Assembly: GCA_964643535.1 (NCBI GenBank) | Contig: CAZXTB010000001.1 | Location: forward strand, 2,260-31,197 | Direction of reading: 5' to 3' | Length of the DNA stretch: 28,938 bases | Source: an uncultured Erysipelotrichaceae bacterium | GTDB lineage: Bacteria > Bacillota_I > Bacilli_A > Erysipelotrichales > Erysipelotrichaceae | Shown here: piece by piece, positions 216 through 27,598 of the stretch | Layout of the letters: every line of letters begins with the position of its first letter | How positions within the stretch are numbered: the first letter of the stretch is position 1 | The notes under the pieces: model-generated | Seen by the model: only the letters and a program-made list of their open reading frames with translations | Databases searched by the model: none | Told to the model about the DNA's origin: nothing | Position numbers and translations under genes: made by a program

Positions 216-242
216 AAGCCATCATGAGAATGATGGCTTTTT
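216..242 (+). terminator. Rho-independent terminator
   Basis: Perfect 10-bp stem AAGCCATCAT / ATGATGGCTT with a GAGA tetraloop and a T run, 5 nt after the stop at 210. Confidence 0.9.
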
Positions 243-322
243 GTATCTTTCTTTCTGTGAAAAAAGTTATGTTTAGATTATTCTCTTTTATGCTTCTTTT
301 CATATACAATGAAAGAGAAACC

Positions 323-1513: not shown

Positions 1514-1679
1514 ACTATATTTTTTCTCGTTTAGTAGGTAAACCCAAGCATTTCGTTGATAAACACATATACAATACCAAATGAAACCAGTACATTGATA
1601 ATGAAGATACAGTACTGTTTTTTTAGGACTTGGTTCACTGATCTGATCAATCAAGAACCCAAACGAAAGGAGTCTTTGA

Positions 1680-5819: not shown

Positions 5820-6608
5820 GTGAAAAGTATAAAAAACAGTAGAGCTTTCACTTTAATAGAGTTAATCATAATCATGGCAATCATGGCCGTTTTAGCGACA
5901 ATATTCATTCCTGCAGTGACAGGGTATATCGATAAAGCTAATCTCTCTACAGACATTGCCAATTTAAGATCACTCAATAGTGTAAGCCAACTCTATCGAT
6001 TTGAATCCAATCCAATCACAGAGGATCTTTTTTCAGGACTAACATCAGATACAGCGCGTATGAATGCGTTGATCACCAACGACTATTTATCAGAAGCAGT
6101 TGTTCCTAAACAAAAAGATGTTTACTTTACATGGAAAACAGATACTCAACAATGGATGATGGAAAACTCAAAAACTCCAAGTAGTTTACCTGGTGTTACG
6201 ATGGGAACCGGTGGTCATAAAGGATATATTAAAGGATCATATACAGGATCTGAAATGGATCTTGTGATGCCGCTTACTTTAGATGGGGTCAACATTACCA
6301 ATGTCTATCAAGATGTCTTTAGAGGTAAAGGATTAACCTCTTTGTATTTTGATCCTGCGAGTTTAATCATTGAGATCCATGCCCGTGCTTTCTTAAGCAA
6401 CAATCTAACTGAGATCAGTCTTCCTAATTCTGTTAAGAAAATAGACTATGCTGCCTTTAGTGATAATCCGATCACGAAGATCACCATTGGTTCTAATGTT
6501 ACTTTTGAAGGCAATGTGATAAGAAACAGTAACCTTTTCAGAGATACCTATTATGCTCAGGGTCCAGGCACTTATTTATTCATCAATGGAGCTTGGGTTA
6601 AACAATAA
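5820..6608 (+). CDS. Type IV pilin-like protein (class III signal peptide) with C-terminal BspA-type leucine-rich repeats
   Basis: GTG start with SD GAGGAG (5808-5813). KNSRA|FTLIELIIIMAIMAVLATIFIP is a prepilin motif. The C-terminus has LRR_5-like units (AFLSNNLTEISLPNSVKKIDYAAFSDNPITKITIGSNV). Confidence 0.85.
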   Translation: MKSIKNSRAFTLIELIIIMAIMAVLATIFIPAVTGYIDKANLSTDIANLRSLNSVSQLYRFESNPITEDLFSGLTSDTARMNALITNDYLSEAVVPKQKDVYFTWKTDTQQWMMENSKTPSSLPGVTMGTGGHKGYIKGSYTGSEMDLVMPLTLDGVNITNVYQDVFRGKGLTSLYFDPASLIIEIHARAFLSNNLTEISLPNSVKKIDYAAFSDNPITKITIGSNVTFEGNVIRNSNLFRDTYYAQGPGTYLFINGAWVKQ

Positions 6609-13473: not shown

Positions 13474-13478
13474 GTGTG

Positions 13479-13501
13479 AAGCCATCCTCGGATGGCTTTT
13501 T
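13479..13501 (+). terminator. Rho-independent terminator
   Basis: AAGCCATC-CTCG-GATGGCTT followed by a T run. Confidence 0.85.
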
Positions 13502-13545
13502 CTTTGAGCACTGAAGTTTAAGGATGAGTATGTTAAGATAAAGCC

Positions 13546-14058
13546 ATGAAGATGAACGAAGAAGACTTTACCGCAATCTATCACGCGACCTATACCCCAC
13601 TTAGAAAATTCATTCTATTTAAGACAAATAGTATTCAAGATGGAGAAGAATTGATCCAGAATGTTTATCTGGATTTTTATCGATACATCGTCAAAGAAGG
13701 AAAGCCTGTTGATAATGCCTTAGCGTATTTAATGGGGATGGCTAAACATGAATTGGGTCGATACTATAAAAACAAAGCGAATGAAGCCATCACGTTCGAT
13801 GATGAAGATAATAATCTTTTAGATCAGATCCCAGATGATTTGGATTTAGAAAGCGAACTATTAGATGCCTTAACCATTGAAGAAATCTGGGCCAGTATTC
13901 AAAAACTTAGTCCTCTTGATCAAAAGATCTTGGTGGGAAGGTATCGATTTGATCTTTCTTATAAAGAGATCGCCGCTCAATGTGAGATGCCTGAGACAAC
14001 GGTTAAGAGCCGAATCTATAAATCGATTGAGACCTTAAAAGTAAAATTTAAAAAATAG
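13546..14058 (+). CDS. ECF-family RNA polymerase sigma factor
   Basis: 170 aa with region 2 (DGEELIQNVYL...AYLMGMAKH) and region 4 (LSPLDQKILVGRY...LSYKEIA...ETTVKSRIYK). An alternative start is possible at 13552. Confidence 0.9.
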   Translation: MKMNEEDFTAIYHATYTPLRKFILFKTNSIQDGEELIQNVYLDFYRYIVKEGKPVDNALAYLMGMAKHELGRYYKNKANEAITFDDEDNNLLDQIPDDLDLESELLDALTIEEIWASIQKLSPLDQKILVGRYRFDLSYKEIAAQCEMPETTVKSRIYKSIETLKVKFKK

Positions 14059-14111
14059 TTTCGTCTATTTTGTCCTAATCATTCTCTTCTAAGATGTAAG
14101 GAAGCAAACCT

Positions 14112-15047
14112 ATGAACCAGAAATTCAAAAAAAGTATTCAACAGTATGCCTGTAATGAAGAGGAGACATTATCTCAAATCTTTAAACAAGCTCAAGTTCT
14201 AGGTTTACGATCCCCAAGGAGAACACCTTTTATGAACAGATTTTTAAAGTTAAGTTTAAGTGTTGCTTTAGTTAGTGTTTTAGCGCTGGTTACGTTAACT
14301 CAATTTGGGATATTTAATCCCTTTGGCGGATCAAATGCCGTTACAGCAGTGTATGCTTTGGATATTAATCCTAGCTTTGAGCTTTCCGTCAATCGTGCTG
14401 ATGTCGTTGTGAAGATTGTCGCCGTCAATGATGACGCTAAGACGATCACCACTGAAGATCTATTGGGTTTAGATTCAGCGCTTGTTATTCAAACGCTTGT
14501 TCAAAGAGCGACAGAAGCTGGGTTTATTGATGATACAGATCTTATCGAAGACTTTGTCTTAGTCACAAGCATTCCGATGAAAGATGATAGTGAAACACAG
14601 AAACAAGTCGATAACCTAGGTCAGAAGATTCAAGCCCTAAGAGAAGCTGATCCTACTCTACAAGCCATTAGTGTCGCCACCATCAAAGCCACTAAGATTG
14701 AACTCTTAGAAGCTCAAGGAAAGAAAATACCTGTAGGATTGTATGTCGTCAATGGAATGATTACCTCCCCTGATGGAACAATCTTAAGCGTTAAAGAATT
14801 CTTCTCAGATCCTGAAAATCGTGCGCTTATTAAGAATTATGGTCATATTACGGAAGTGAATCTTGATAAGTATCGTTCCCGCTTGATATTGGCATTGAAT
14901 AAACTTGATAGACAAGGTGTTAATACCATTAGCTTACGAGAACGCATTACAGCAACATCAACCGAAGATGAACTGAATGTAATCAACAATGAAATACAAA
15001 TTTTAATTGAAGCGAATAAACCAGGTAATGGGAAACCCGCCAAATAA
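14112..15047 (+). CDS. Single-pass anti-sigma factor candidate with an RsgI-like juxtamembrane domain
   Basis: About 45-aa N-terminal region, one TM segment (LSLSVALVSVLALVTLTQFGIF), then YALDINPSFELSVN...VAVNDDA, matching the RsgI extracytoplasmic signature. Directly downstream of the ECF sigma; SD AAGGA. Confidence 0.75.
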   Translation: MNQKFKKSIQQYACNEEETLSQIFKQAQVLGLRSPRRTPFMNRFLKLSLSVALVSVLALVTLTQFGIFNPFGGSNAVTAVYALDINPSFELSVNRADVVVKIVAVNDDAKTITTEDLLGLDSALVIQTLVQRATEAGFIDDTDLIEDFVLVTSIPMKDDSETQKQVDNLGQKIQALREADPTLQAISVATIKATKIELLEAQGKKIPVGLYVVNGMITSPDGTILSVKEFFSDPENRALIKNYGHITEVNLDKYRSRLILALNKLDRQGVNTISLRERITATSTEDELNVINNEIQILIEANKPGNGKPAK

Positions 15048-16157: not shown

Positions 16158-17069
16158 CTATTTGGCCCAAAGATCATAAGGATATTTGTCTTGAGCTTTA
16201 AACTCTAAGAAACGTGCGACCACATAAGGTTTATCATCGTGATAAGTTACCCCAAACCATTCATTCTCAGAAGGCATGACTTTGATTGAGAAGGCTTTTG
16301 ATTTGATTGTTTCTCCGATCATTGTAGGAATAACGTGTTCACATTTTAGTGGATTATTAGAAAGTTCTCGTTGAAGATACAAGGTCAATTGTTTTTCAGC
16401 AAGTTCAAATATTTTTGGGGTAAATCCCCAAAAATTCATTGACACCAAGGCATCCTGGTTTAAAGGGAGCCATCCAGTTTCATCAGATCCACTTAAGGTT
16501 ACCCCATCTACGCTTTTAATTTTTGCGTATTCATTTACGTCGATGAGTGTTTCACCTTCAACATCACATACCCCTCTACTCACTGTTCCTGAATCAGAAA
16601 GGGTCTTGTTTAGACGATATCCAACCATACTAAAGACATCATCTTTGACCTCATGGGTTAAGAAGTCATACATCTTCTTAAAGGCATCTTTCCCATAATA
16701 ATCATCCGCATTACAGATCATAAAGGCTTCTTTGACTTGATGACGACAGATCCATAAGGCGTGGGTCGTTCCCCAGGGTTTTTCACGACCTTCAGGGGCA
16801 CTAAAACCTATAGGCAATTCTTTCATATCTTGAAAGATGAATTCCACATCGATAAACTGACGAACTTTATCCACCAATGCCTTTTTAAAAGCTTCCTCAT
16901 GTTCCTTACGAATGATCAAATATACTTTTTTGAACCCAGCTTGGATCGCATCATAGATTGAAAAATCGATGATGGATTCCCCATTATTGCCTACTGTATC
17001 GATTTGTTTCAATCCACCATAACGACTTCCCATACCCGCAGCTAAGATGACTAAACTAGGATTTTTCAT
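16158..17069 (-). CDS. Sugar-phosphate nucleotidyltransferase (NTP_transferase family)
   Basis: LVILAAGMGSRYGGLKQ signature, KPWGT, NADDYYG, VSMNFWGF and WFGVTY. Start moved from 17117 to ATG 17069, preceded by SD GAGGT. Confidence 0.88.
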   Translation of the reverse strand: MKNPSLVILAAGMGSRYGGLKQIDTVGNNGESIIDFSIYDAIQAGFKKVYLIIRKEHEEAFKKALVDKVRQFIDVEFIFQDMKELPIGFSAPEGREKPWGTTHALWICRHQVKEAFMICNADDYYGKDAFKKMYDFLTHEVKDDVFSMVGYRLNKTLSDSGTVSRGVCDVEGETLIDVNEYAKIKSVDGVTLSGSDETGWLPLNQDALVSMNFWGFTPKIFELAEKQLTLYLQRELSNNPLKCEHVIPTMIGETIKSKAFSIKVMPSENEWFGVTYHDDKPYVVARFLEFKAQDKYPYDLWAK

Positions 17070-17203
17070 AGAATACCTCATTGTTTCTGTTGTGTGAAGA
17101 CGTATTATGATAAACAATCATTCATCTAAAGAACTGTTCATCGAATAAAATATAGACTTCTAAAATGATTTCAAATGTAACTATAAAAAGATATGGACTT
17201 TAA

Positions 17204-18475
17204 CTAGAAAACTTGTATTACTCCAACTTCTCTTAGACGAATCTGAATAAAACTACCCGCTCCAAAGACCTCGTTAAACTTTAGCTTTAACGAGGGGGTT
17301 AAAGTCTTAGGGACAAAGAGTAGAATGGTTCCAGCAAATCCTCCCCCATGAACTCTAAAGGCTCCTTGTCCATCCAAAGCCTTTTCAGCCATCATTAAGG
17401 CCAAAGCTAAACCTTGTTTAGTGGAGTGTTTATTCCAAACGTTCTGTAGATTGGTATATGAAGATCGTCCTGAGGCTAAAATCAAAGCTAAGAAGTCCTT
17501 ACTATTCGAAGTGTTGAGAGCTTCCATTAAATCCAATACGCGTTGATTTTCTTGGAAGAAATGATGACCTCTCAATAAGATGCGTGTATCGAAAAGGGTA
17601 TTTAATCTAGGCAATTGATCATAGAAATCATCTGGATGAACTCTTGATAAGGTGGTTTGATTAAACGTCTGAGATAAAAGCTTACAGTCTTCAAATATTT
17701 CCGCATAATCACTAGACAGATCAGCATGAGATCCACCACACTGAACCAAGCAAATGTCAAATGGATCAAATAGATTATGACTGTCTATTTTTTGTACGAC
17801 AGGGTTATCTTTATCGTAAAAATCTATGGCACAAAAACCCCCATGGGCAATAACCATTTGATCCATTAATCCACAAGGTTTATTAAAATAATTGTTTTCA
17901 GCTTTCTGCGAAATAATCGCATACTCACTTGCGCTCATGGGTTTTAAACCATAGTAGGTATCTAGAATCTTAACCAGTAGGACTTCTATAGAAGCAGATG
18001 AAGATAAGCCTGATCCTGAAAAAACCGTACTTTCAATGTAGGCATCGAATCCACCCACAACACCAGTTGCCTCTTTGAAATAGTGAGCAATTCCTCTAAT
18101 CAATCCCATGGTGGTGTAGTACTCTTTTGGATCAACGGATAGATCAGAGAGATCAACAGGTGCAATGTCATAATCCTTAGACATCACTCTAATGATGTTA
18201 TCGTTGTTTCTTGAGACAAAAGCCACACTATCCAAATCAACAGCCATGGCCAAGACGCGACCCAGTTGATGATCCGTATGATTACCCCCTACTTCTATAC
18301 GACCTGAAGCACTAAACACATCCACAAGATCGTGATTAAAAAGGGTCCTATAGTGTTCAGCCATCGATAAATATCGTGCTCTTTGAGATGAAACTTGTTG
18401 GGCTCCATACAGATTGGTTAGTTGAGATGTGGATGCCTTGCTTTGAATGAAGGAGAATAGTTCAGTTGATTTCAT
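17204..18475 (-). CDS. galK: Galactokinase-like GHMP sugar kinase
   Basis: SGRIEVGGNHTDH, ATP loop SGSGLSSSAS, KPCGLMDQ and RVHGGGFAG. SD AAGGA. Lies in a locus with galE and mgl genes. Confidence 0.82.
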   Translation of the reverse strand: MKSTELFSFIQSKASTSQLTNLYGAQQVSSQRARYLSMAEHYRTLFNHDLVDVFSASGRIEVGGNHTDHQLGRVLAMAVDLDSVAFVSRNNDNIIRVMSKDYDIAPVDLSDLSVDPKEYYTTMGLIRGIAHYFKEATGVVGGFDAYIESTVFSGSGLSSSASIEVLLVKILDTYYGLKPMSASEYAIISQKAENNYFNKPCGLMDQMVIAHGGFCAIDFYDKDNPVVQKIDSHNLFDPFDICLVQCGGSHADLSSDYAEIFEDCKLLSQTFNQTTLSRVHPDDFYDQLPRLNTLFDTRILLRGHHFFQENQRVLDLMEALNTSNSKDFLALILASGRSSYTNLQNVWNKHSTKQGLALALMMAEKALDGQGAFRVHGGGFAGTILLFVPKTLTPSLKLKFNEVFGAGSFIQIRLREVGVIQVF

Positions 18476-18506: not shown

Positions 18507-18515
18507 AGTATAACA
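18507..18515 (-). promoter_or_regulatory. Extended -10 promoter element for galK
   Basis: The minus strand reads TG-T-TATACT, 32 nt upstream of the galK ATG. No good -35. Confidence 0.5.
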
Positions 18516-18531
18516 TTGAGAGCGCTACCAA
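18516..18531. promoter_or_regulatory. cre / LacI-family operator-like pseudo-palindrome
   Basis: TTGAGAGCGCTACCAA: 12 of 16 positions palindromic around GCGC, one mismatch to the cre pattern TGNNARCGNWWWCA. Abuts the galK -10 element. Confidence 0.55.
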
Positions 18532-18662
18532 TAATTTATGAAAAGTGAGACAAAAGATATAAAATCTTGTGATGCATCTTGCTCTTGCTATCAAATCAAG
18601 GGTATTCATATTATAATGAAAACGATATTACTAATCCCAGTGTTAGAAAAACGGTGAATCAA

Positions 18663-20252
18663 ATGAATAGAGATTACACCATCCTTTTAGTGGATGATGA
18701 AGAAGAAGTTAGAAAGCGCATCATATCAAAAATCCATCCTGAATCTGGTTTTGAAGTCATAGGACAAGCGGCCAATGGCTATGATGCGATCGATTTGATC
18801 GAAAAACTTAAACCAGATGTCGTTATTACAGACATTCGGATGCCTTTTGTTAATGGTATAGAGTTGGCTAAGATCATCAGTAAAGAACACCCTAAAACCA
18901 AGGTGGCTTTTATTTCGGGCTATGATGAATTCGCCTATGCTAAAGAAGCCATTGAACTCAATGTTGTCAGCTATCTTTCCAAACCCATCACTGAAGAAGA
19001 AGTGAATCATTTTCTATCTAAACTTAAATCTAGAATGGATGAAGAGTACCAAGCTTTATTTAATCAAGAAAGATTGGATGAAGTGTATCAAGCCAATTTA
19101 CCCGCATTGATAGAGAATCAATTTAACTCGTTACTGCATTACTCCAACATCACGGATCAAGATTTACAACGTTTTAAAGTCTTCGATATTGATCTTAGTG
19201 TAGGATGTTTCACCATTGGGATCATTGAGATCGATGCAGATGCAGACTTCTTAGAAATAGAATATCTACGAATCTTTTTATTGAATTTGCTTAAGAAGAA
19301 ATTTGAAGACTATAAAGCTTTGTACTACATCAACAGTGGGTTTGGACTAGTATTCATTGTTCATCAACTTGCTATGAATGTGAAAGACGTAGAAACCAGG
19401 CTTTATGAAGTGGTTTTAACCAAGAAACAATATTCTAATATTCGAGTTCAAATTGGGGTATCTGAAACTTTCGATGATTTTAAACTGGTCTCAAGTAAAG
19501 TCCTGCAAGCTAAAAAGGCACTCTCTTATAGTAACTATCTCAACATTGGAACCATCATTTACTATAAAGACATCACCTCTAAAAAGAAGATTGATTTGAA
19601 ACTATCTAAAAGCGAAATCGATGAGATCAGTTATGTCATCAAATTTGGAACTGTTAAAGAGGTTGATGATTTATTCGCAAACTTACTAAAAAACAAAGAC
19701 ATGCGTCAAGACTATTTGCTCAATAAACAATACTATCTGGTGAATCTTGCCCATATATTTATCGAATTCGCCAATGGGCTCAATGTGGAGTTGGATGATA
19801 TTCTTGAAGGTAACTTCTTTGATAAACTATCAGGATTTTCTCAACTTCAAGACATGTTTAATTTCTTAAAGAAATTGGTCTTTGCTTGTCGAGAAATGAA
19901 CATGCATCGATCAAAGACATCAGCCAGTTTACTTCTCGAAGAGGCACTTCTCTATTTAAATACCAACTATGCTAATCCAAATATTACGATGGAATTTGTT
20001 TGTGATGATCTGGGCATCAGTATTTCTTATCTAAGCAATCTTTTTAAAAAAATCGAAGACACCACCTTCAACAAGTATCTGGTTAAAACACGGATGGAAA
20101 AGGCGATGGAGCTTTTGAAGTTTAGCGATGATAAGATCTATGAAGTTGCCAATCAAGTAGGCTATAACGACATCTATTATTTCAGCTACAGTTTCAAAAA
20201 ATACACAGGGCATTCACCCAAGGAGTATCGCCATGATCAAAAGGCTGAATGA
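18663..20252 (+). CDS. YesN-type response regulator (REC + C-terminal AraC HTH)
   Basis: ILLVDDE, VVITDIRMP, FISGYDEFAYAKEA, YLSKP and AraC C-terminus VANQVGYNDIYYFSYSFKKYTGHSPKEYR. Start moved from TTG 18579 to ATG 18663. Confidence 0.93.
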   Translation: MNRDYTILLVDDEEEVRKRIISKIHPESGFEVIGQAANGYDAIDLIEKLKPDVVITDIRMPFVNGIELAKIISKEHPKTKVAFISGYDEFAYAKEAIELNVVSYLSKPITEEEVNHFLSKLKSRMDEEYQALFNQERLDEVYQANLPALIENQFNSLLHYSNITDQDLQRFKVFDIDLSVGCFTIGIIEIDADADFLEIEYLRIFLLNLLKKKFEDYKALYYINSGFGLVFIVHQLAMNVKDVETRLYEVVLTKKQYSNIRVQIGVSETFDDFKLVSSKVLQAKKALSYSNYLNIGTIIYYKDITSKKKIDLKLSKSEIDEISYVIKFGTVKEVDDLFANLLKNKDMRQDYLLNKQYYLVNLAHIFIEFANGLNVELDDILEGNFFDKLSGFSQLQDMFNFLKKLVFACREMNMHRSKTSASLLLEEALLYLNTNYANPNITMEFVCDDLGISISYLSNLFKKIEDTTFNKYLVKTRMEKAMELLKFSDDKIYEVANQVGYNDIYYFSYSFKKYTGHSPKEYRHDQKAE

Positions 20253-21960
20253 TTTATCGATTGGGAAATCTATATTCCTAACGATCCTTATTTTTACTGG
20301 GTTTTTAACCTTATCGACTGTCCTATCAAATCAATTGATTTTCGCTAGGACGGATCGACTTATCGAGAGTACTTCCAAAGAAATCAATAAACAAGTCATC
20401 ATGAACTATGAGAATTATCTTAGCAACATGATCGGTATTTCCAATGCTTTACAGGAATACATCATCGATACCACGAAAGTTGATGATTTTGAAGAACTAT
20501 CACTTTTGTTTGTACAGACCACCAATATCGAACGAAACATTCTAAACGTAGCTTTGATTTCTGAAGATGGGCAGCTGATGGCTTCAAGTGTTGATGTTAA
20601 AATCAATCCAAATATTTTAGACATAGAATGGTTTATCGAAGCCAAACAGGCTGAAGATATCCATCATTTTAGTGGTCTACATACCGAAAATTTCTTTATG
20701 TTGGGACGTAAAGAAGTTTTTACTGTTTCTAAAAGTGTCCAGTATTTCGTAAATGGGGTTTCTAATAAAGGGGTATTGATGATTGATATCGATACCAGCA
20801 ATTTTAAGACCTTAGCTCAACAAACCAATCTTGGTGAAAAGGGGCACATCGTTATCACTTCGCAATCTGGGAAGATCATTTATTCCTCTGATCCTTTGTG
20901 TTATGGGAATGATTGTACTTCAGCTGAGATCTTAAAAGAGATTGGCTTAGGAGGTCGTTTGGTGAAATGGAACAATCTAAATATGTACGCCAACGTGAAT
21001 ACCATCAAAGATACCCGTTGGAAGATCGCCACCTTCATCAACGTCAATGAGATCGTCTCAACCAAAGCAGACATCTTAATACGATTGATTTTGATTTTCG
21101 TTTTAACGCTGATCACGACTTCTCTGATATCCACCTATTTCTCTAGACGAATAACCCTTCCGATGAACATCTTGAAGAATCACATTGCCTTAATAGAGAA
21201 AGGTGACTTTGAGTCTAGAGTTCATGTCTCAGGATTAAAAGAAGTCACTCTTTTAGCGGAAGCTTTCAATACGATGAGTAATCGAATCAAGGAACTGATG
21301 GATAAGGTTTTTACTGAACAAAATGAAAAGAGAAAGACCCAATTCATTGCCTTACAGAATCAAATCAATCCTCATTTTCTATACAATACCTTGGATTCTA
21401 TTGTCTCGTTGAGCGAAAATAATCGTAATAAGGATGTAGAAAGCGCCATCATTGCCTTGTCTAAATTCTTTAGGATGAGTATTTCCAATGAGATGAATTT
21501 AGTAGAGCTCAAGGATGAAATTGAACATGTTAGAAACTACCTGCTTATTCAACAGATTCGTTATCAAAATACCTTCGTCTTTGATTTTGAAATCGATGAT
21601 GATATTCTTCATCATAAAGTCATTAAGTTATCACTTCAACCTTTGGTAGAAAATGCCATCCTACATGGGATCCATCCTGATGATGCCTATTCAACCATCT
21701 TGGTTAAAGGCTATGCCAAAGATAATTTCCTTTATATTGAAGTATTCAATGAAGGCTATGGAATCTCTAAGGAACGTATCCAGGAGATCCATACCATGAT
21801 TCAATCCAATCAGAATACATCCAGTATGGGGCTTAAGAATGTCTATCAACGACTGAAACTATACTATGGTGATGAAGCAGACCTTATCTTAGAAAGTGAA
21901 TTGGATGAATATACAAAGGTTATTATGAAGATGCCTTTGGGAATGGAGGAATCACTATGA
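20233..21960 (+). CDS. YesM/LytS-type sensor histidine kinase (extracellular Cache-like domain, HAMP, His_kinase, HATPase)
   Basis: Two TM segments flank an extracellular domain; HAMP region, LQNQINPHFLYNTL, LQPLVENAILHG and MGLKNVYQRLKLYYG. Overlaps the response regulator by 20 nt. Confidence 0.94.
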   Translation: MIKRLNDLSIGKSIFLTILIFTGFLTLSTVLSNQLIFARTDRLIESTSKEINKQVIMNYENYLSNMIGISNALQEYIIDTTKVDDFEELSLLFVQTTNIERNILNVALISEDGQLMASSVDVKINPNILDIEWFIEAKQAEDIHHFSGLHTENFFMLGRKEVFTVSKSVQYFVNGVSNKGVLMIDIDTSNFKTLAQQTNLGEKGHIVITSQSGKIIYSSDPLCYGNDCTSAEILKEIGLGGRLVKWNNLNMYANVNTIKDTRWKIATFINVNEIVSTKADILIRLILIFVLTLITTSLISTYFSRRITLPMNILKNHIALIEKGDFESRVHVSGLKEVTLLAEAFNTMSNRIKELMDKVFTEQNEKRKTQFIALQNQINPHFLYNTLDSIVSLSENNRNKDVESAIIALSKFFRMSISNEMNLVELKDEIEHVRNYLLIQQIRYQNTFVFDFEIDDDILHHKVIKLSLQPLVENAILHGIHPDDAYSTILVKGYAKDNFLYIEVFNEGYGISKERIQEIHTMIQSNQNTSSMGLKNVYQRLKLYYGDEADLILESELDEYTKVIMKMPLGMEESL

Positions 21961-22964
21961 AGCGGTTCATCATCGTTGTCTTATTCTTGTTAAGTGCGTG
22001 TAATAGTCAAATAGAAACCGTACCTTTATTCATCTATGATGGTAATGATGCCTACATCAAAGAATTTGAGAGGAAGATCCAAAGCGTCGATCAGAATGAT
22101 TTTCTCATCAAGACCTATATCAGTAAGAATTCTCAAATCATTCAAAACGAACAAATCGATCAGGTCCTCAAAGAAAAGCATCCCTTATTGATCATCAATC
22201 CAGTCGATCGATTAAGTGTCTACGCCATCATCGAAAAGGCCAAACAAACGAATACCACCATCATATTCTTTAATCGAGAACCCTTAGCTTCTGATTTAGC
22301 CAGTTACGACAAAGCTTACTATGTAGGGGCAGACGCTACCCAATCCGCTGAGCTTCAAGCCAGTCTCATCATGGACTTGTTTGGCAATGATCCAAAAAAC
22401 TTAAATAAGTATGATAAGAACCAAGATGGGATCATTCAAGCTTTGATTCTAAAAGGTGAACAAGGTCATCAAGATGCGGAAGCCAGAACGAAGTTCGTCA
22501 TCGAGCGATTAACCGTCGCTGGTTATCAAGTAGAAGTATTGGATATCGTTATCGCGAATTGGGATAGAGATATTGCCTATGGCTTGATGGATGGGTTATT
22601 GGAAGACTATAGAGAAACCATGGAACTGTTGATTTCCAACAATGATGCGATGGCGCTTGGTGCCATCCAACGTATGCAAGAAAAGTTGGTTTTTGAAGAC
22701 ACCAATCAAAATGGGGTCATCGATCGTGATACTGAACCTTGGATACCTGTCGTAGGCATCGATGGAATTACAGCTGCCATAGATTCAATTAAAACAGGAT
22801 ATCTTTATGGGACAGTCAAAAATGACTCTCAAAATATGGCATTGATCATCATCGAATTAGCGAAGTGGTTATTAGAAGAAAAATCTCTCACTGATTTCCC
22901 TTATGAGATCACCAACGGTAAATATGTTTGGGTCAATTATCAAAAAATGACCCTGGATGAATAG
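21957..22964 (+). CDS. MglB/GGBP-like galactose/glucose-binding lipoprotein, probable accessory sensor of the two-component system
   Basis: Lipobox LSAC; INPVD, FFNREP, DKNQDG Ca loop, GHQDAEART, NWDRD, NNDAMA and GIDG. ATGA overlap with the kinase stop. Confidence 0.88.
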   Translation: MKRFIIVVLFLLSACNSQIETVPLFIYDGNDAYIKEFERKIQSVDQNDFLIKTYISKNSQIIQNEQIDQVLKEKHPLLIINPVDRLSVYAIIEKAKQTNTTIIFFNREPLASDLASYDKAYYVGADATQSAELQASLIMDLFGNDPKNLNKYDKNQDGIIQALILKGEQGHQDAEARTKFVIERLTVAGYQVEVLDIVIANWDRDIAYGLMDGLLEDYRETMELLISNNDAMALGAIQRMQEKLVFEDTNQNGVIDRDTEPWIPVVGIDGITAAIDSIKTGYLYGTVKNDSQNMALIIIELAKWLLEEKSLTDFPYEITNGKYVWVNYQKMTLDE

Positions 22965-23018
22965 AATTTTGAATTGTGAGTAATATTTCACAAAAAGAGT
23001 ATTGTTTATTCAATGTTA

Positions 23019-23032
23019 TGTAAGGGCTTACT
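23019..23032. promoter_or_regulatory. cre-like site in the mglB promoter spacer
   Basis: TGTAAGGGCTTACT, two mismatches to the perfect cre TGTAAGCGCTTACA, immediately upstream of TATAAT. Confidence 0.55.
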
Positions 23033-23072: not shown

Positions 23073-24056
23073 ATGAAAAAGTTTTTGCTCTTAGTCGCAT
23101 TAACCGCATTGGTTTTGGGCAGTTTCACTGCTTGTACTGCTAAACCAAAAGGACCAGTCAAAGTCGGTATCGCCATCTATAAGTTTGATGACACCTTCAT
23201 GACAAACTATCGTACCGAAATGGAAACCTATTTGAAATCATTGGAAACAACTGAAACCAAATATGAAATCACCATTACCGACGGTAAGAATGATCAAGCA
23301 ACCCAAACTGAACAAATCGACAGTTTCATTGCTCAAGCTTATGATGTATTGATTATCAACTTAGTAGACTTAACTGCAGCCGGCGCTATTATTGCTAAGG
23401 TTAAAGCAGCAGGTATCCCTACTGTATTCATTAATCGTCAACCTTCCGTAGCTGATATGGGCCTTTGGGACAAGATCACTTACGTTGGTGCAAAAGCTGA
23501 AGATTCAGGGACCTATCAAGGCGAAATCGCTTTGGACCTCTGGAATGCTGCTGGATCAACAATGGACAAAAATGGCGATGGTATCCTTCAATATGTTATG
23601 TTGATGGGCCAAGCTATCCACCAAGATGCTGCTTTACGTACAGAATATTCCATCAAAAAATTAGTAGATGCTGGCGTTAAAGTTGAAAAACTATTTGAAG
23701 AACGCGCTAACTGGAACCGTGACGAAGGTCAGGTCCAAATGGCTTCAGCCATCGCTCAATACGGAGATAAGATTGAAGTTGTCTTTGGAAACAATGATGA
23801 CATGGCTTTAGGTGCTATCCAAGCATTAAAGGCTGCCAATATGGTCGTTCCTGTTATCGGTGTTGATGCTACTGCTCCAGCATTGGATTCTATTGGATTG
23901 GGTGATTTGGCTGGAACTGTCTTGAATGACAGCGTTGGTCAGGCACACACTTCAGTCGACAAAGCGTTAGCCTTGTTAAAGGGTGATACTCTTGCTAAAG
24001 AATACTGGGTTCCTTATGTTAAGGTTACTCCAGAAAACTTCGAAGATTTTAAATAA
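23073..24056 (+). CDS. mglB: Galactose/glucose ABC transporter substrate-binding lipoprotein
   Basis: Lipobox FTAC; YKFDDTFM, INLVD, DKNGDG, HQDAALRT, NWNRD, NNDDMA, GVDA and VLND match the GGBP sugar-contact pattern. SD AGGAGG. Confidence 0.88.
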   Translation: MKKFLLLVALTALVLGSFTACTAKPKGPVKVGIAIYKFDDTFMTNYRTEMETYLKSLETTETKYEITITDGKNDQATQTEQIDSFIAQAYDVLIINLVDLTAAGAIIAKVKAAGIPTVFINRQPSVADMGLWDKITYVGAKAEDSGTYQGEIALDLWNAAGSTMDKNGDGILQYVMLMGQAIHQDAALRTEYSIKKLVDAGVKVEKLFEERANWNRDEGQVQMASAIAQYGDKIEVVFGNNDDMALGAIQALKAANMVVPVIGVDATAPALDSIGLGDLAGTVLNDSVGQAHTSVDKALALLKGDTLAKEYWVPYVKVTPENFEDFK

Positions 24057-24069
24057 GCTTAACTGATCC

Positions 24070-24105
24070 AGAAAATCAAGTGTGGTCAAACACACTTGAT
24101 TTTCT
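24070..24105 (+). terminator. Intercistronic hairpin after mglB (partial terminator or mRNA stabiliser)
   Basis: Perfect 15-bp inverted repeat AGAAAATCAAGTGTG-GTCAAA-CACACTTGATTTTCT. Confidence 0.8.
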
Positions 24106-24126
24106 ATCTCGTTAGAAAGAGGTTAT

Positions 24127-25644
24127 ATGCAACATCTCGATATTATATTAGCCATGAATCATGTCAGTAAAAGTTTTCCTGGGGTAAAAGCATTGGATGA
24201 TGTGTCTTTCCACGTTAGACGTGGCACAGTACATGCTTTAATGGGTGAAAACGGAGCTGGAAAATCCACATTAATGAAATGTCTCTTTGGAATCTACTCC
24301 TTAGATGAAGGTGAGATTCTATTTGACGGTAAACAAGTTCATTTTCATAATCCTGAAGATGCTCTCAAAGCTGGGATTTCTATGATTCATCAAGAACTAC
24401 AACCGATACCTTATCGAAACATCGCAGAAAACCTTTGGGTAGGACGCTATCCATCCAAAAAGATTTTGGGTTTATTCTCTATTGTCGATCACAAACAAAT
24501 GAAAAAGAGTTCAGAAGAATTGCTTAAAAGAGTTGGTCTCAATCTGAATCCAAACACATTACTAAAAGAACTCTCTGTATCTCAGATCCAGTCGATCGAA
24601 ATTGCGAAAGCCATTTCATATAATGCCAAAGTCATTATTATGGATGAACCTACATCTTCCTTAACTCAAGCTGAGGTTAATCAGTTGTTTGAGATCATAA
24701 CTACTTTAAAGAATCTTGGTGTATCCATTATTTATATTTCTCATAAGATGGAAGAGATTTTAAAGATCTCAGATGAAGTAACCATCATGAGAGATGGGAA
24801 GTACATTGGAACATGGTTGGCTAAAGAATTAACGATGGAGAAAATCATTAAGAATATGGTTGGTCGTGAATTGACCAATCTATATCCTCCTAAAACCAAT
24901 GTTCCTGGCGAAGTTTCTTTTGAAGTCAAGGACTTAAGTTCCACAAATCCAAAGTCTTTTAAGAATATTTCGTTTAGTGCCCATCGAGGTGAAATATTTG
25001 GGATAGGGGGCTTGGTTGGAGCACAAAGAACTGAACTCGTTGAGGGAATATTTGGTCTTCGATCTATTAAGTCAGGTGAAATATATTTACACAACAAAAA
25101 GATAGAAATTAAACAACCTCACAGTGCTGTTAAGCAAGGTCTCGCCTTGGTTACAGAAGATCGTAGAGGCAATGGAATCTTTGGCGTATTATCGGTAAGA
25201 GATAATGTCGCTGTGGCCTCTTTAGATGAATTCGTCCAATTTCACTTCATGCTTAATAATGCTAAACTCAACCAATTGGCTGAAACCAACATTAAGAAGC
25301 TAAGTATAAAAACCCCTAGCACAAAAACTAAGATCCAAACCCTCTCTGGGGGTAATCAACAAAAGGTTATCATCTCAAGATGGTTGGCTGTTAATCCAGA
25401 CATCTTCATTCTTGATGAACCTACTCGAGGCATCGACGTTGGTGCCAAATACGAAATCTATAGCATCATGTTGGATCTTGCCAATCAAGGTAAGACCATC
25501 ATCATGATTAGCTCAGAGATGTCAGAGTTGTTGGGGATCAGCGATAGAATTATGGTCATGTGTGAAGGCAGATTGAGTGGCATACTAGATCGTTCAGAAG
25601 CAAATCAGGAAAAGATCATGGCTCTGGCGACAGCGTACATGTAA
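24127..25644 (+). CDS. mglA: Sugar ABC transporter (CUT2) ATP-binding protein, two ABC domains
   Basis: GENGAGKST Walker A, IIMDEPT, LSGGNQQK, ILDEPTRGIDVGAK and MISSEMSEL. Confidence 0.93.
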   Translation: MQHLDIILAMNHVSKSFPGVKALDDVSFHVRRGTVHALMGENGAGKSTLMKCLFGIYSLDEGEILFDGKQVHFHNPEDALKAGISMIHQELQPIPYRNIAENLWVGRYPSKKILGLFSIVDHKQMKKSSEELLKRVGLNLNPNTLLKELSVSQIQSIEIAKAISYNAKVIIMDEPTSSLTQAEVNQLFEIITTLKNLGVSIIYISHKMEEILKISDEVTIMRDGKYIGTWLAKELTMEKIIKNMVGRELTNLYPPKTNVPGEVSFEVKDLSSTNPKSFKNISFSAHRGEIFGIGGLVGAQRTELVEGIFGLRSIKSGEIYLHNKKIEIKQPHSAVKQGLALVTEDRRGNGIFGVLSVRDNVAVASLDEFVQFHFMLNNAKLNQLAETNIKKLSIKTPSTKTKIQTLSGGNQQKVIISRWLAVNPDIFILDEPTRGIDVGAKYEIYSIMLDLANQGKTIIMISSEMSELLGISDRIMVMCEGRLSGILDRSEANQEKIMALATAYM

Positions 25645-25654
25645 GGAGAAAATC

Positions 25655-26656
25655 ATGAAAAAATTCTTAAATAATTTCAAGGGTCCTAACTTAAAGAACA
25701 CCCTAGTAGACAATGCCATGTATCTGATTTTGTTAAGCATTTTGATTTCAGTATCGATTGCTCAACCATTGTTTCTATCAGCCAACAATCTCACCAATAT
25801 TTTAATGAATTCATCGATCCGTATCCTGATTGCCTTGGGTGTCAGCGGTGCCCTGATTACGCGTGGGACTGACTTATCCGCAGGGAGAATCGTAGGTGTA
25901 GGGGCTGTTATAGGGGGGACCTTGTTGCAACGTCCTGACTATGCAGCGAAATTTTTTCCTACCTTGGGTGATATGCCTGTCTTAGGTATACTCCTGATTG
26001 CCGTTACGATCACTGCCCTTATCGGGTTGGTGAACGGATTGGTCATCTCTTATCTACATGTACCTCCGTTTATCGCAACCTTAGGGATGCAATCTATATT
26101 GTATGGGTTGGCATTGATCTATACCAAATCTCAACCAATTGGGGGCTTGAAAGATGATTATACTTATCTTGCTTCTGGACGAATCGCGAATATACCTATC
26201 CTAATTATCATCGCCATTGCGATGATTGGGGTTATGTGGTTCTTATTGAATATGACTAAATTTGGTAAATACATCTATGCCATTGGTGGAAATGAATCGG
26301 CTGCTGAAGTCGCAGGCGTAAACATCAAATGGACTAAAATTAGAGTCTATATCTTAGCGGGTTTGTTTTATGGATTGGCGGGTTTCTTGCTTGCTGCTAA
26401 GAGTGGTGGTGCTACCGCCAATTATGGTATAGGATACGAACTAGAAGCCATTGCAGCCTGTACGATTGGTGGTGTAAGTACCGCTGGTGGTGTAGGTAAG
26501 ATCCAAGGTATCGTTTCTGGGGTCTTGGTATTTGAAATGTTAAAAACAAGCTTACAGTTCTTACGTGTACCTTCAGATCTTCAATATGTAGCCATTGGTA
26601 CTGTAATCGTCATTGCTGTTGCCATCGATATTCGTAAATATCTGGCCAAGAAATAA
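25655..26656 (+). CDS. mglC: Sugar ABC transporter permease
   Basis: RGTDLSAGR, HVPPFIATLG, KFGKYIYAIGGNESAAEVAGV and YELEAIAACTIGGVS. Confidence 0.92.
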   Translation: MKKFLNNFKGPNLKNTLVDNAMYLILLSILISVSIAQPLFLSANNLTNILMNSSIRILIALGVSGALITRGTDLSAGRIVGVGAVIGGTLLQRPDYAAKFFPTLGDMPVLGILLIAVTITALIGLVNGLVISYLHVPPFIATLGMQSILYGLALIYTKSQPIGGLKDDYTYLASGRIANIPILIIIAIAMIGVMWFLLNMTKFGKYIYAIGGNESAAEVAGVNIKWTKIRVYILAGLFYGLAGFLLAAKSGGATANYGIGYELEAIAACTIGGVSTAGGVGKIQGIVSGVLVFEMLKTSLQFLRVPSDLQYVAIGTVIVIAVAIDIRKYLAKK

Positions 26657-26701: not shown

Positions 26702-27598
26702 ATGGAAACCATCACAATCACCTCCGAATTAAAGCTCTCCAGAGTCATACAAGGATTCTGGCGTTTAAAAAGCTGGCATTTTACCCCCCAACAACTTTGT
26801 GACTTTATGAACTCTGCCATAGAATTAGGGGTAACTACCTTTGATACAGCTGAAATCTATGGAGATTATGAGGCGGAAGCACAACTAGGTGCTGCTTTAG
26901 AATTGGATCCAAGTTTAAGGGCTAAAATTCAAATCATTACCAAAACGGGTATTAATAAACCACATCCAGATTATCCTTATCGGACCAAACATTATGAGAC
27001 CAGTTATGAGAAAATAATCTCTTCTTGTAATAAGAGTTTAGAGAAGCTCAAAACAGAATATATCGATGTCTATCTTATCCATCGAGAAGACCCTTTCTTT
27101 GATCATCATGGTGCCGCAAAAGCATTAGTAGAACTCAAAACACAAGGGAAAATAAGAGCCTATGGGGTCTGTAATTATGATCCGATTAAGTTTCATGCGT
27201 TCAACGAAATAACACATCATTCCTTGATAACCAATCAGATCGAGGTTTCTCCTCTGATGTTTGAACACTTCAATTCTGGAATGATGGATCTACTTCAAAT
27301 GGAAAGAGTTCATCCTATGTTTTGGTCACCTTTGGCAGGGGGATCAATCTTCACCTCTGATGATCCTGTTTGTTTAAGAGTGCGTGAAGTGCTAAGTCGA
27401 ATTGCTCAACATCATCATTGTGAGATGGACACGGTTGTTCATGCATGGTTATTAATGCATCCTGTAAAAGGGATGGTGATCAGCGGTAGTCAAAAGATAG
27501 ATCGATTAAAAAATGTAGTCGATGCTTTATCACTAAAGCTAGACTTAGAAGAATGGTATGAAATATATCTAGCGTCTGGCCAACAAGTCCTTCGCTAA
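26702..27598 (+). CDS. Aldo/keto reductase (YdhF/YcsN-like)
   Basis: LSRVIQGFWR, TTFDTAEIYG, ITKTG, YLIHREDP, NQIEVSP and WSPLAGG. Confidence 0.92.
   Translation: METITITSELKLSRVIQGFWRLKSWHFTPQQLCDFMNSAIELGVTTFDTAEIYGDYEAEAQLGAALELDPSLRAKIQIITKTGINKPHPDYPYRTKHYETSYEKIISSCNKSLEKLKTEYIDVYLIHREDPFFDHHGAAKALVELKTQGKIRAYGVCNYDPIKFHAFNEITHHSLITNQIEVSPLMFEHFNSGMMDLLQMERVHPMFWSPLAGGSIFTSDDPVCLRVREVLSRIAQHHHCEMDTVVHAWLLMHPVKGMVISGSQKIDRLKNVVDALSLKLDLEEWYEIYLASGQQVLR

What the first reader, a model, noticed from the sequence alone, without database searches (positions are those of the whole stretch)
16158..18475. Galactose locus with kinase + nucleotidyltransferase + GalE but no GalT: candidate pyrophosphorylase route
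Seen: galK is followed on the same strand by an NTP_transferase-family gene (134-nt gap, no terminator-like hairpin seen). The locus also has mglBAC and galE, but no GalT-like (HxHxQ) gene or galM in the window. Known: the Leloir pathway needs GalT; the alternative is Gal-1-P + UTP -> UDP-Gal by a UDP-sugar pyrophosphorylase, then GalE. Kinase plus nucleotidyltransferase salvage pairs are precedented (AmgK-MurU, Fkp). Inference: this protein is a Gal-1-P or broad sugar-1-P uridylyltransferase replacing GalT; run in reverse on UDP-Glc it could also release Glc-1-P.
Basis: partly seen in the sequence, partly recalled or inferred. Interest (0 to 1): 0.72.

Follow-up and report, generated by a model that had tools for sequence, protein, structure and literature searches.

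The report
Galactokinase plus uridylyltransferase replacing GalT
A freshwater Erysipelotrichales bacterium that has no GalT and no GalU carries, right after its galactokinase gene, an extra copy of an uncharacterised sugar-phosphate nucleotidyltransferase that most likely makes UDP-galactose directly, a candidate for the "missing GalT" step seen in this group and, in the few checked, in some Bacteroidales genomes.

Summary
On the minus strand, a galactokinase gene (17204-18475) is followed after 134 nt, with no terminator, by a 304-aa nucleotidyltransferase (16158-17069). mglBAC and galE lie beside them.

No GalT was found in this MAG (78% complete), nor in 24 relatives of its family, several of them closed genomes. 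In an order-wide sample, 26 of 135 family genomes had GalT.

The transferase belongs to the family of PDB 3PNN. I found no characterised member. Its fold and motifs are those of RmlA/GalU-type hexose-1-P pyrimidine nucleotidyltransferases.

In the window's family it is mutually exclusive with canonical GalU. 74 of 79 GalK+ GalT- genomes carry it.

The window gene is an extra paralog of a stand-alone housekeeping copy. A second, independent duplication in a relative placed a copy behind a different galK in an alpha-galactosidase operon. Elsewhere the family sits in galK-NT-galM operons, beside galE, in the GalT slot of GH112 operons, and fused to anomeric kinases or a phosphohexomutase.

Best reading: a UDP-glucose/UDP-galactose pyrophosphorylase that replaces both GalU and GalT. 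This rests on comparative evidence only; no enzyme assay exists.

Earlier agents of this scan met the same family on other DNA.

The parts
17204..18475 (-). Galactokinase, the roughly 425-aa Erysipelotrichales type (motif GRIEVGGNHTDHQ)
   Evidence: Pfam GHMP_kinases_N and GalKase_gal_bdg. NCBIfam galK models match but below their cut-offs (TIGR00131, 115.7 against 226.65). Orthologs at about 40% identity lie in galT-(galM)-galK(-galE) operons in six genomes of the sister family. A 67% paralog lies in galM-galK-lacZ on G000:C70.
17070..17203 (-). 134-nt spacer between galK and the nucleotidyltransferase gene
   Evidence: No terminator-like site and no stable fold. The weak promoter-like matches are no more frequent than in shuffles. 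The spacer is 88% conserved in G001.
16158..17069 (-). 304-aa sugar-1-phosphate nucleotidyltransferase of the 3PNN family: the galK-linked paralog, predicted UTP:hexose-1-P (Gal-1-P/Glc-1-P) uridylyltransferase
   Evidence: PF00483, 34.7 bits. Match to PDB 3PNN at E = 3.5e-80 over the full length. AlphaFold2 model with pLDDT 95.7. Next-best folds are RmlA and GalU, TM about 0.64. hhalign against GalU gives 97.7% probability.
18579..20252 (+). Response regulator with an AraC-type HTH, divergent from galK
   Evidence: Pfam Response_reg, HTH_18 and HTH_AraC. The locus order is conserved in G001, G003, G004, G005 and G006.
20233..21960 (+). Sensor histidine kinase (dCache, HAMP, His_kinase, HATPase_c)
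21957..22964 (+). MglB-like binding protein, probably the sugar-sensing partner of the two-component pair
   Evidence: Peripla_BP_4. NF011924 MglB, 198.9 bits, below its cut-off.
23073..26656 (+). mglB-mglA-mglC-type galactose/glucose ABC transporter
   Evidence: Peripla_BP_4, two ABC_tran domains and BPD_transp_2. MglB model, 239 bits, below its cut-off.
26702..27598 (+). Aldo/keto reductase between mglC and galE; role unknown
   Evidence: PF00248, 174 bits
27612..28601 (+). UDP-glucose 4-epimerase GalE
   Evidence: TIGR01179, 437.8 bits against a cut-off of 262.3

Best explanation
The kinase is this order's galactokinase. The gene behind it encodes a UTP:hexose-1-phosphate uridylyltransferase, that is, a UDP-glucose/UDP-galactose pyrophosphorylase, of the uncharacterised 3PNN family.

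Proposed route:
1. Galactose enters through the Mgl-type ABC transporter.
2. GalK phosphorylates it to Gal-1-P.
3. The transferase converts Gal-1-P plus UTP to UDP-Gal plus PPi.
4. GalE epimerises UDP-Gal to UDP-Glc.
5. UDP-Glc is either used for envelope glycans or taken back to Glc-1-P plus UTP by the same enzyme running in reverse.
6. The roughly 570-aa phosphoglucomutase then feeds Glc-1-P into glycolysis.

In this lineage the same enzyme family also stands in for GalU. The window gene is a duplicated copy of that housekeeping gene, placed under the galactose locus, probably to raise capacity when galactose is available.

Shown here: gene content, fold, motifs, phylogenetic profiles, the duplications and the gene contexts. 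Inferred: UTP as the nucleotide, Gal-1-P as a substrate, the reverse reaction in vivo, and co-transcription with galK.
For: 1. The kinase is a real GalK. Its orthologs lie in galT-galK, galT-galM-galK and galE/galT-galK-galM operons in six genomes of the sister family. Its paralog lies in galM-galK-lacZ.

2. GalT is missing.
- It was not found in 0 of 24 relatives of the window's family in the first sample, including closed genomes.
- In the order-wide sample it was found in 26 of 135 genomes of that family and 57 of 64 of the sister family.
- PF02744 and the eukaryote-type UDPGP family PF01704 are absent from five near-complete genomes of the genus, apart from one 22-bit fragment in G003 that contains a stop codon. 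GalE and two phosphohexomutases are present in all five.

3. GalU is missing.
- In the window's family all 16 GalU+ genomes lack the transferase.
- None of the 114 transferase+ genomes has GalU.

4. The transferase accompanies the GalT-less state.
- 74 of 79 GalK+ GalT- genomes of the family carry it.
- GalK+ genomes that use GalU keep GalT in 4 of 5 cases; those with the transferase keep it in 19 of 93.

5. It has the right fold and motifs.
- After 3PNN, the closest structures are Glc-1-P thymidylyl- and uridylyltransferases, TM about 0.64.
- The GxGxR...K, DD, G and E motifs align with those of GalU.
- Q81 is invariant in 60 diverse members.

6. Copies have been recruited to galK repeatedly.
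- The window and G001 copies form a galK-linked clade that is sister to the housekeeping copies.
- G010's copy, 97.7% identical to its own housekeeping gene, overlaps by 4 nt a canonical galK (NF003705, 422 bits) in a LacI/ABC transporter/GH36 alpha-galactosidase operon.
- Three Bacteroidales genomes carry galK-NT-galM-MFS. No GalT and no GalU were found in them.

7. Other contexts fit a UDP-hexose enzyme.
- It is adjacent to a bona fide galE in 14 of 77 loci.
- It occupies the GalT (LnpC) slot of GH112 phosphorylase/NahK-like operons in six genomes.
- It occurs fused to an APH-type kinase and to a PGM/PMM mutase.
Against: - No biochemical data exist for any member of the family that I could find.
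- The transferase is not specific to GalT-less genomes. It occurs in 21 of 34 GalK- genomes of the family and in most GalT+ genomes of the sister family, so the profile shows a housekeeping enzyme rather than a dedicated GalT substitute.
- Adjacency to galK is rare and recent. G004, G005 and G006 keep galK at the same locus without it.
- The genomes compared are related, so the exclusion from GalU rests on about six GalU+ genera, not on 16 independent events.
- Nine genomes in the sample have neither GalU nor the transferase (G025, G030, G033, G041, G097, G174, G193, G203, G207; three of them carry GalT), so another source of UDP-Glc must exist.
- The lysine of the EKP motif and the second metal-binding aspartate of RmlA/GalU are not conserved.
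- A catabolic cycle needs PPi for the reverse step, which may be unfavourable where pyrophosphatase is active.
- An internal promoter in the 134-nt gap cannot be excluded.
Confidence: 0.6

Rival explanations
1. The transferase is only a Glc-1-P-specific UDP-glucose pyrophosphorylase, a GalU analogue. Gal-1-P is then handled by another, unrecognised enzyme, or it accumulates and acts as a signal or brake.
For: - It is perfectly exclusive with GalU in the window's family.
- The housekeeping copy is stand-alone beside cdaA-cdaR-glmM.
- A fusion to a phosphohexomutase exists.
- NT-galE pairs fit de novo synthesis of UDP-Glc and then UDP-Gal.
- The closest characterised folds act on Glc-1-P.
- A paper on Akkermansia reads GalK without GalT as a regulatory brake (PMC13313206).
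Against: - Without GalT, UDP-Glc has no role in galactose use, so this does not explain two independent duplications landing directly behind galK.
- Nor does it explain the galK-NT-galM operons or the gene's place in the GalT slot of GH112 operons.
- These genomes also carry alpha- and beta-galactosidase operons that feed GalK.
Confidence: 0.2
2. The pair salvages an amino sugar or another hexose, for example GalNAc or GlcNAc to UDP-HexNAc. The family would then be essentially a UDP-HexNAc pyrophosphorylase partner of anomeric kinases, working like NahK with LnpC or AmgK with MurU.
For: - 14 of 77 loci, and the GH112 operons, pair the transferase with an APH-type NahK-like kinase, sometimes with GH20 hexosaminidases.
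- An NT-APH fusion exists.
- The window kinase scores below the NCBIfam galK cut-offs and has Asn where the canonical-type GalKs aligned here (G010, L094) have Glu, in GGNHTDH against IGEH.
Against: - The window partner is a GHMP kinase whose orthologs sit in classical galT/galM/galE operons. The locus carries mglBAC and galE.
- GlmU-length ORFs are present in these genomes.
- On the family tree, kinase-linked, galE-linked and stand-alone members are interleaved and do not form separate subfamilies. For example, L042 (NT-galE) and L055 (NT-APH-galE) are sisters.
Confidence: 0.1
3. The route is anabolic only: GalK plus the transferase make UDP-Gal for envelope glycans. Bulk galactose is not catabolised this way, because the reverse pyrophosphorolysis of UDP-Glc does not run in vivo.
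For: The known pyrophosphorylase routes in Leishmania serve salvage (PMC4722067, abstract); that those in plants do likewise is from my own knowledge. Pyrophosphatase activity would pull the reaction towards UDP-sugar.
Against: The same genomes hold high-capacity uptake and hydrolysis operons that end in galK (mglBAC; ABC transporter/GH36/galK/NT; galM-galK-lacZ), which look catabolic. I found no other galactose route, though I did not search for the tagatose-6-P pathway.
Confidence: 0.1

Closest known systems
Pyrophosphorylase (Isselbacher-type) route with UDP-sugar pyrophosphorylase (USP, EC 2.7.7.64) of plants and Leishmania, and Bifidobacterium BLUSP
   Same: The logic is the same: an anomeric kinase makes the sugar-1-P, one enzyme converts sugar-1-P plus UTP into the UDP-sugar, and GalE interconverts the products, so GalT is not needed (PMC4722067, PMC6329318).
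   Different: USP, UGP and UAP belong to the roughly 500-600-aa UDPGP family (PF01704). The window protein does not match that family, and it is absent from these genomes. Here the enzyme is a 304-aa RmlA/GalU-fold protein, and it also appears to be the cell's only GalU equivalent.
GalU/GtaB (UTP-glucose-1-phosphate uridylyltransferase, TIGR01099) and RmlA
   Same: It shares the fold (TM about 0.6) and the GxGxR...K, DD, G and E motifs. It shows a complementary phylogenetic profile with GalU.
   Different: Identity is only 12-18%. It gave no match to the GalU model at E <= 0.01. It has an insertion of about 16 residues after the conserved Gln, and a different C-terminal part.
PDB 3PNN, Porphyromonas gingivalis W83 'conserved domain protein' (entry title calls it a glycosyltransferase)
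   Same: It is a full-length homolog: E = 3.5e-80, and TM 0.90 to the model.
   Different: It is a structural-genomics entry. I found no paper that mentions it, and it says nothing about substrates.
GalT / LnpC (UDP-glucose-hexose-1-phosphate uridylyltransferase, HIT superfamily)
   Same: It occupies the same operon position and fills the same pathway gap: after galK, and after the GH112 phosphorylase next to a NahK-like kinase.
   Different: The fold and chemistry are unrelated. GalT swaps UMP between sugar phosphates, whereas this enzyme would use UTP and release PPi.
Kinase/nucleotidyltransferase salvage pairs AmgK-MurU and the fused Fkp
   Same: An anomeric kinase is followed by, or fused to, a sugar-1-P nucleotidyltransferase.
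   Different: From my own knowledge: AmgK is an APH-type kinase and MurU is a roughly 223-aa enzyme that acts on MurNAc-1-P, and Fkp makes GDP-fucose. No MurU structure appeared in the sequence search at E <= 1.
CugP, the non-GalU UDP-glucose pyrophosphorylase of cyanobacteria (Swiss-Prot P74285)
   Same: It is a precedent for a GalU replacement from within the same superfamily; TM 0.63.
   Different: It is 388 aa, 14% identical and a different subfamily. From my own knowledge, it has no known link to galK.

Membership tests
Sugar-1-phosphate nucleotidyltransferase superfamily (PF00483, RmlA/GalU fold) | Pfam model matched above its gathering score | tested here: met
   34.7 bits against a cut-off of 21.2
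Sugar-1-phosphate nucleotidyltransferase superfamily (PF00483, RmlA/GalU fold) | N-terminal G-x-G-x-R...K nucleotide-binding signature | tested here: met
   LAAGMGSRYGGLKQ. G13, R17, K22 and Q23 are invariant in 60 diverse members and align with the PAAGLGTRF...K motif of GalU.
Sugar-1-phosphate nucleotidyltransferase superfamily (PF00483, RmlA/GalU fold) | Rossmann-like fold superposable on RmlA/GalU, with the catalytic acidic motif | tested here: met
   Model pLDDT 95.7. RmlA TM 0.64, GtaB/AglF TM about 0.6. NADD aligns with GalU's LGDD.
Sugar-1-phosphate nucleotidyltransferase superfamily (PF00483, RmlA/GalU fold) | Gln that reads the pyrimidine base (RmlA Q83 / GalU Gln) | tested here: inconclusive
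   Q81 is invariant and ends the matching beta-strand. However, hhalign placed the family's insertion differently, so the equivalence is my inference.
3PNN family (uncharacterised ~300-aa nucleotidyltransferases) | Full-length similarity to PDB 3PNN | tested here: met
   E = 3.5e-80 over residues 4-301; TM 0.90
GalU (TIGR01099 equivalog) | Score above the curated cut-off (326.8 bits) | tested here: not met
   The transferase gave no TIGR01099 match at E <= 0.01. It is related only at profile level.
GalT (PF01087/PF02744, HIT-type His-x-His) | Homology to the GalT domains | tested here: not met
   Neither window protein matches them. Neither family was found in the genome or the genus.
Eukaryote-type USP/UGP/UAP (PF01704 UDPGP) | UDPGP domain | tested here: not met
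   No match in the protein and none in five genomes of the genus, apart from one 22-bit fragment containing a stop codon.
UDP-sugar pyrophosphorylase by activity (EC 2.7.7.64 / 2.7.7.10) | UTP-dependent conversion of Gal-1-P (and Glc-1-P) to the UDP-sugar | not testable with these tools
   Only context supports it.
Galactokinase (GHMP family) for the 423-aa protein | GHMP N-terminal domain and galactose-binding signature | tested here: met
   PF00288, 60.4 bits; PF10509, 50.6 bits against a cut-off of 23.1
Galactokinase (GHMP family) for the 423-aa protein | NCBIfam galK equivalog cut-off | tested here: not met
   TIGR00131, 115.7 against 226.65; NF003472, 157 against 499. It is a divergent subfamily.
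Galactokinase (GHMP family) for the 423-aa protein | Orthologs encoded in Leloir operons | tested here: met
   galT-galK, galT-galM-galK and galE/galT-galK-galM in six genomes of the sister family, at 38-41% identity
AmgK-MurU / Fkp type salvage modules | APH-type kinase partner (AmgK) or fused GDP-fucose enzyme (Fkp) | tested here: not met
   The partner here is a separate GHMP galactokinase. Other members of the family do pair with or fuse to APH kinases.

The most novel reading that the evidence does not exclude
The 3PNN family is a widespread bacterial UDP-sugar pyrophosphorylase with broad sugar-1-P range. It takes whatever the neighbouring anomeric kinase or phosphorylase supplies (Gal-1-P, Glc-1-P, HexNAc-1-P). 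In whole lineages, namely most of this Erysipelotrichales family and probably many Bacteroidales, it replaces both GalU and GalT. Under this reading the textbook Leloir pathway is not the route of galactose use in a substantial share of gut and freshwater bacteria.
Probability: 0.4. Interest if true: 0.8.

Novelty: new variant of a known kind. Interest (0 to 1): 0.62.

Why it matters
GalK without GalT is a recurring annotation gap.
- It covers most of this Erysipelotrichales family.
- The Bacteroides thetaiotaomicron control genome matched the GalK and GalE models but not GalT or GalU.
- A 2026 paper treats the same gap in Akkermansia as a puzzle (PMC13313206).

A small, easily expressed enzyme family with a solved but unassigned structure (3PNN) is a concrete candidate to close that gap. 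If it does, three things follow:
- Pathway reconstruction for gut and freshwater bacteria would change for galactose, lactose, melibiose/raffinose and mucin or milk-glycan use.
- The way these organisms make UDP-glucose without GalU would be explained.
- A compact bacterial UDP-sugar pyrophosphorylase would become available for chemoenzymatic synthesis of sugar nucleotides.

Tried and rejected
- Literature. Ten full-text searches found no description of this family or of a bacterial GalT bypass by it. The search terms covered 3PNN, GalT-less Leloir, the Isselbacher pathway in bacteria, Bacteroides/P. gingivalis UGPase and GapMind. The last search was too broad to be useful. Two B. thetaiotaomicron papers (PMC3878776, PMC8121099) do not mention galK or galT. 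Subscription literature was not searchable.
- Expression. No RNA holder was listed for the stretch. The RNA-library contigs I laid were only 90-95% alike, covered parts of the transferase gene only, and did not bridge the gap. They therefore come from relatives or the paralog and say nothing about co-transcription.
- G005. I first took the G005:C183 copy for a galK-linked one split by a contig break. The tree and a DNA comparison show it is the housekeeping copy, and that in G005 galK is followed directly by the PHP gene.
- Subfamilies. I looked for separate subfamilies of kinase-linked and galE-linked members that might mark specificity. The labels are interleaved on the tree, so none could be defined.
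- Shared operator. A 10-mer, TCAATGTTAT, lies upstream of both galK and mglB, but it may be chance or part of the -10 region.
- Not run: complex prediction, because no protein-protein binding claim is made.
Full report
**What is there.** The window comes from an Erysipelotrichales MAG (G000: 1.7 Mb, 357 contigs, 78% complete). Its DNA is held by lake and freshwater metagenomes.

On the minus strand, ORF 17204-18475 encodes a 423-aa GHMP kinase carrying the galactokinase galactose-binding signature. After a 134-nt gap comes a nucleotidyltransferase gene. Its true start is the ATG at 17069, behind a GAGGT ribosome-binding site, so the gene runs 16158-17069 and encodes 304 aa. The gap has no terminator-like site and no unusually stable fold. 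Its weak promoter-like matches are no more frequent than in shuffled sequence.

Divergent from galK lie, in order:
- an AraC-type response regulator, a Cache/HAMP histidine kinase and an MglB-like sensor protein;
- mglB, mglA and mglC;
- an aldo/keto reductase;
- a bona fide galE.

The observation therefore stands as written.

**The kinase is a galactokinase.** It scores below NCBI's galK equivalog cut-offs and reads GGNHTDH where the two canonical-type GalKs aligned here read IGEH. But its orthologs at about 40% identity, which share that motif, are the kinases of classical galT-galK, galT-galM-galK and galE/galT-galK-galM operons in six genomes of the sister family. A 67% paralog in the same MAG sits in galM-galK-lacZ. 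So galM exists in the genome, just not in the window.

**GalT and GalU are missing.**
- PF01087 was found in none of 24 relatives of the window's family, several of them closed genomes, but in 12 of 15 genomes of the sister family.
- In an order-wide sample of 201 genomes (at least 90% complete, apart from G000 itself), GalT was present in 26 of 135 genomes of the family and 57 of 64 of the sister family.
- The GalK signature was present in 101 of 135 genomes of the family.
- Five near-complete genomes of the genus have no PF02744. They have no eukaryote-type UDPGP enzyme, apart from one 22-bit fragment in G003 that contains a stop codon. All five have GalE and two phosphohexomutases, one GlmM-type and one PGM of about 570 aa.
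- Canonical GalU (TIGR01099 above its cut-off) occurs in only 16 of 135 genomes of the family.

**What the transferase is.**
- It matches PF00483 weakly.
- It matches PDB 3PNN, a P. gingivalis structural-genomics entry, over its whole length at E = 3.5e-80. I found no paper on that entry.
- The family is large: 1,709 representatives of 50%-identity clusters at E <= 1e-30. It spans Bacillota, Bacteroidota, Verrucomicrobiota, Kiritimatiellota, Lentisphaerota and others.
- An AlphaFold2 model is confident, with pLDDT 95.7.
- After 3PNN, the nearest solved and reviewed structures are Glc-1-P thymidylyltransferases (RmlA) and UTP-Glc-1-P uridylyltransferases (GtaB, AglF, CugP), at TM about 0.6 and 12-18% identity. 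No Swiss-Prot entry belongs to the family.
- A profile comparison with GalU gives 97.7% probability and aligns the GxGxR...K, DD, sugar-loop G and E motifs.
- Q81 is invariant in 60 diverse members. I infer that it is the pyrimidine-reading Gln of RmlA/GalU, but the alignment around the family's insertion of about 16 residues is ambiguous.

**Phylogenetic profile** (cross-tabulated by hand). Within the window's family, G000 included:

| Group | Count |
|---|---|
| GalU+ genomes that lack the transferase | 16 of 16 |
| Transferase+ genomes that have GalU | 0 of 114 |
| GalK+ GalT- genomes that carry the transferase | 74 of 79 |
| GalK+ genomes using GalU that keep GalT | 4 of 5 |
| GalK+ genomes with the transferase that keep GalT | 19 of 93 |
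| GalK- genomes that carry the transferase | 21 of 34 |

The three GalK+ GalT- genomes of the sister family all carry the transferase and lack GalU.

Against a dedicated GalT substitute: the transferase also occurs in GalK- genomes and in most GalT+ genomes of the sister family, 24 of which also have GalU. The profile is therefore that of a housekeeping UDP-hexose enzyme that makes GalT dispensable. It is not the profile of an enzyme found only where GalT is lost. The genomes are related, and the GalU+ set covers about six genera.

**Paralogy and recruitment.**
- In the genus, the ordinary copy is a stand-alone gene next to a TraB/PrgY gene and the cdaA-cdaR-glmM operon.
- G000 has that copy too, cut off by a contig end. 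The window gene is therefore an extra paralog.
- On the tree, the window copy and the G001 copy at the same locus form a clade that is sister to the housekeeping copies of G000, G001 and G005.
- G004, G005 and G006 keep galK at the same locus without the transferase. In G005, galK is followed directly by the PHP-domain gene.
- Independently, G010 (a closed genome with no GalT) duplicated its own gene; the two copies are 97.7% identical. The new copy overlaps by 4 nt a canonical short galK (NF003705, 422 bits). That galK closes an operon of LacI regulator, ABC transporter and GH36 alpha-galactosidase.

Two independent duplications behind two different galK types are hard to explain unless the enzyme works on the kinase's product.

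**Contexts elsewhere.** Among 77 diverse loci:

| Neighbour of the transferase | Loci |
|---|---|
| Bona fide galE | 14 |
| APH-type (NahK-like) kinase, sometimes with GH20 hexosaminidases and transporters | 14 |
| galK-NT-galM-MFS operon (Bacteroidales) | 3 |
| galM | 1 |

In the five genomes examined for it, no GalT and no GalU was found; their completeness is not given.

In six genomes of the sister family the gene follows a GH112 lacto-N-biose/galacto-N-biose phosphorylase and precedes a NahK-like kinase. That is the slot held by the GalT-type LnpC in bifidobacteria. GH112 releases Gal-1-P.

Fusions with an APH kinase and with a PGM/PMM mutase exist. On the family tree, kinase-linked, galE-linked and stand-alone members are interleaved, which argues for one orthologous enzyme used in several settings.

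**Interpretation.** The enzyme is a UDP-glucose/UDP-galactose pyrophosphorylase that replaces both GalU and GalT in this lineage. The window copy is a galactose-locus paralog.

Still inferred: UTP as the nucleotide, Gal-1-P as a substrate, the reverse reaction that would return Glc-1-P for catabolism, and co-transcription with galK.

Rivals:
- a Glc-1-P-only GalU analogue, with Gal-1-P handled otherwise;
- an amino-sugar salvage enzyme;
- an anabolic-only route.

**Relation to earlier work.** The pathway logic is known from plant and trypanosomatid USP, which belongs to an unrelated enzyme family. I found no description of this family's function. Earlier agents of this scan met the same family on other DNA: fused to galactokinase in Gemmatimonadota, paired with NahK-like kinases, and fused to ParB. 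They also found it uncharacterised. Those notes are leads, not evidence.

My own additions are:
- the GalU/GalT profile in Erysipelotrichales;
- the two independent duplications behind galK;
- the galK-NT-galM operons in Bacteroidales;
- the GH112 context.

Noticed in passing
window 26702-27598: An aldo/keto reductase gene lies between mglC and galE. The distance from galK to galE is the same in G001, so it is probably conserved there. Its role in a galactose locus is unexplained.
   Followed up: no
window 18579-22964: An AraC-type response regulator, a Cache/HAMP histidine kinase and a second MglB-like binding protein lie ahead of mglBAC. This looks like a three-component sugar sensor. The block is conserved with galK in G001, G003 and G006; the short G004 and G005 contigs reach only as far as the response regulator.
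   Followed up: partly
window about 18510-18520 and 23010-23020: The 10-mer TCAATGTTAT occurs upstream of both galK and mglB, in the same orientation relative to each gene. It could be a shared operator or chance.
   Followed up: partly
window 224-2906: A PEP_hydrolase-like domain is fused to an AraC-type HTH (224-1513) and followed by a UPF0261 protein (1680-2906). It is unusual to find this enzyme-like pair as a transcription-factor fusion.
   Followed up: no
window 10732-15047: A 913-aa protein with six DUF5050 repeats is followed by a sigma-70-type factor and an RsgI-like anti-sigma factor.
   Followed up: no
window 5820-6608: A small protein combines a type IV pilin-like N-terminal methylation motif with BspA-type leucine-rich repeats.
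   Followed up: no
L113:4125-10507 (G037), also L127-L129, L131, L132: An operon in the sister family reads ABC permease, MalK-type ATPase, GH112 lacto-N-biose/galacto-N-biose phosphorylase, 3PNN-family transferase, NahK-like kinase. It is a GNB/LNB pathway in which the transferase holds the LnpC (GalT) position.
   Followed up: partly
P0145, P0156, P0147: Natural fusions of the transferase exist with an APH-type kinase (675 aa), with a PGM/PMM phosphohexomutase (742 aa) and with ParB (625 aa).
   Followed up: partly
L118:1089-7798 (G027): Here the transferase lies between a BCCT transporter and a choline-binding GH25 lysin, with a LicC-like nucleotidyltransferase/choline-kinase fusion two genes upstream. 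This is a choline/teichoic-acid setting rather than a sugar one.
   Followed up: no
G132:C28:722-4034: Two equally scoring copies of the transferase lie 1.5 kb apart on one contig, a possible further duplication.
   Followed up: no
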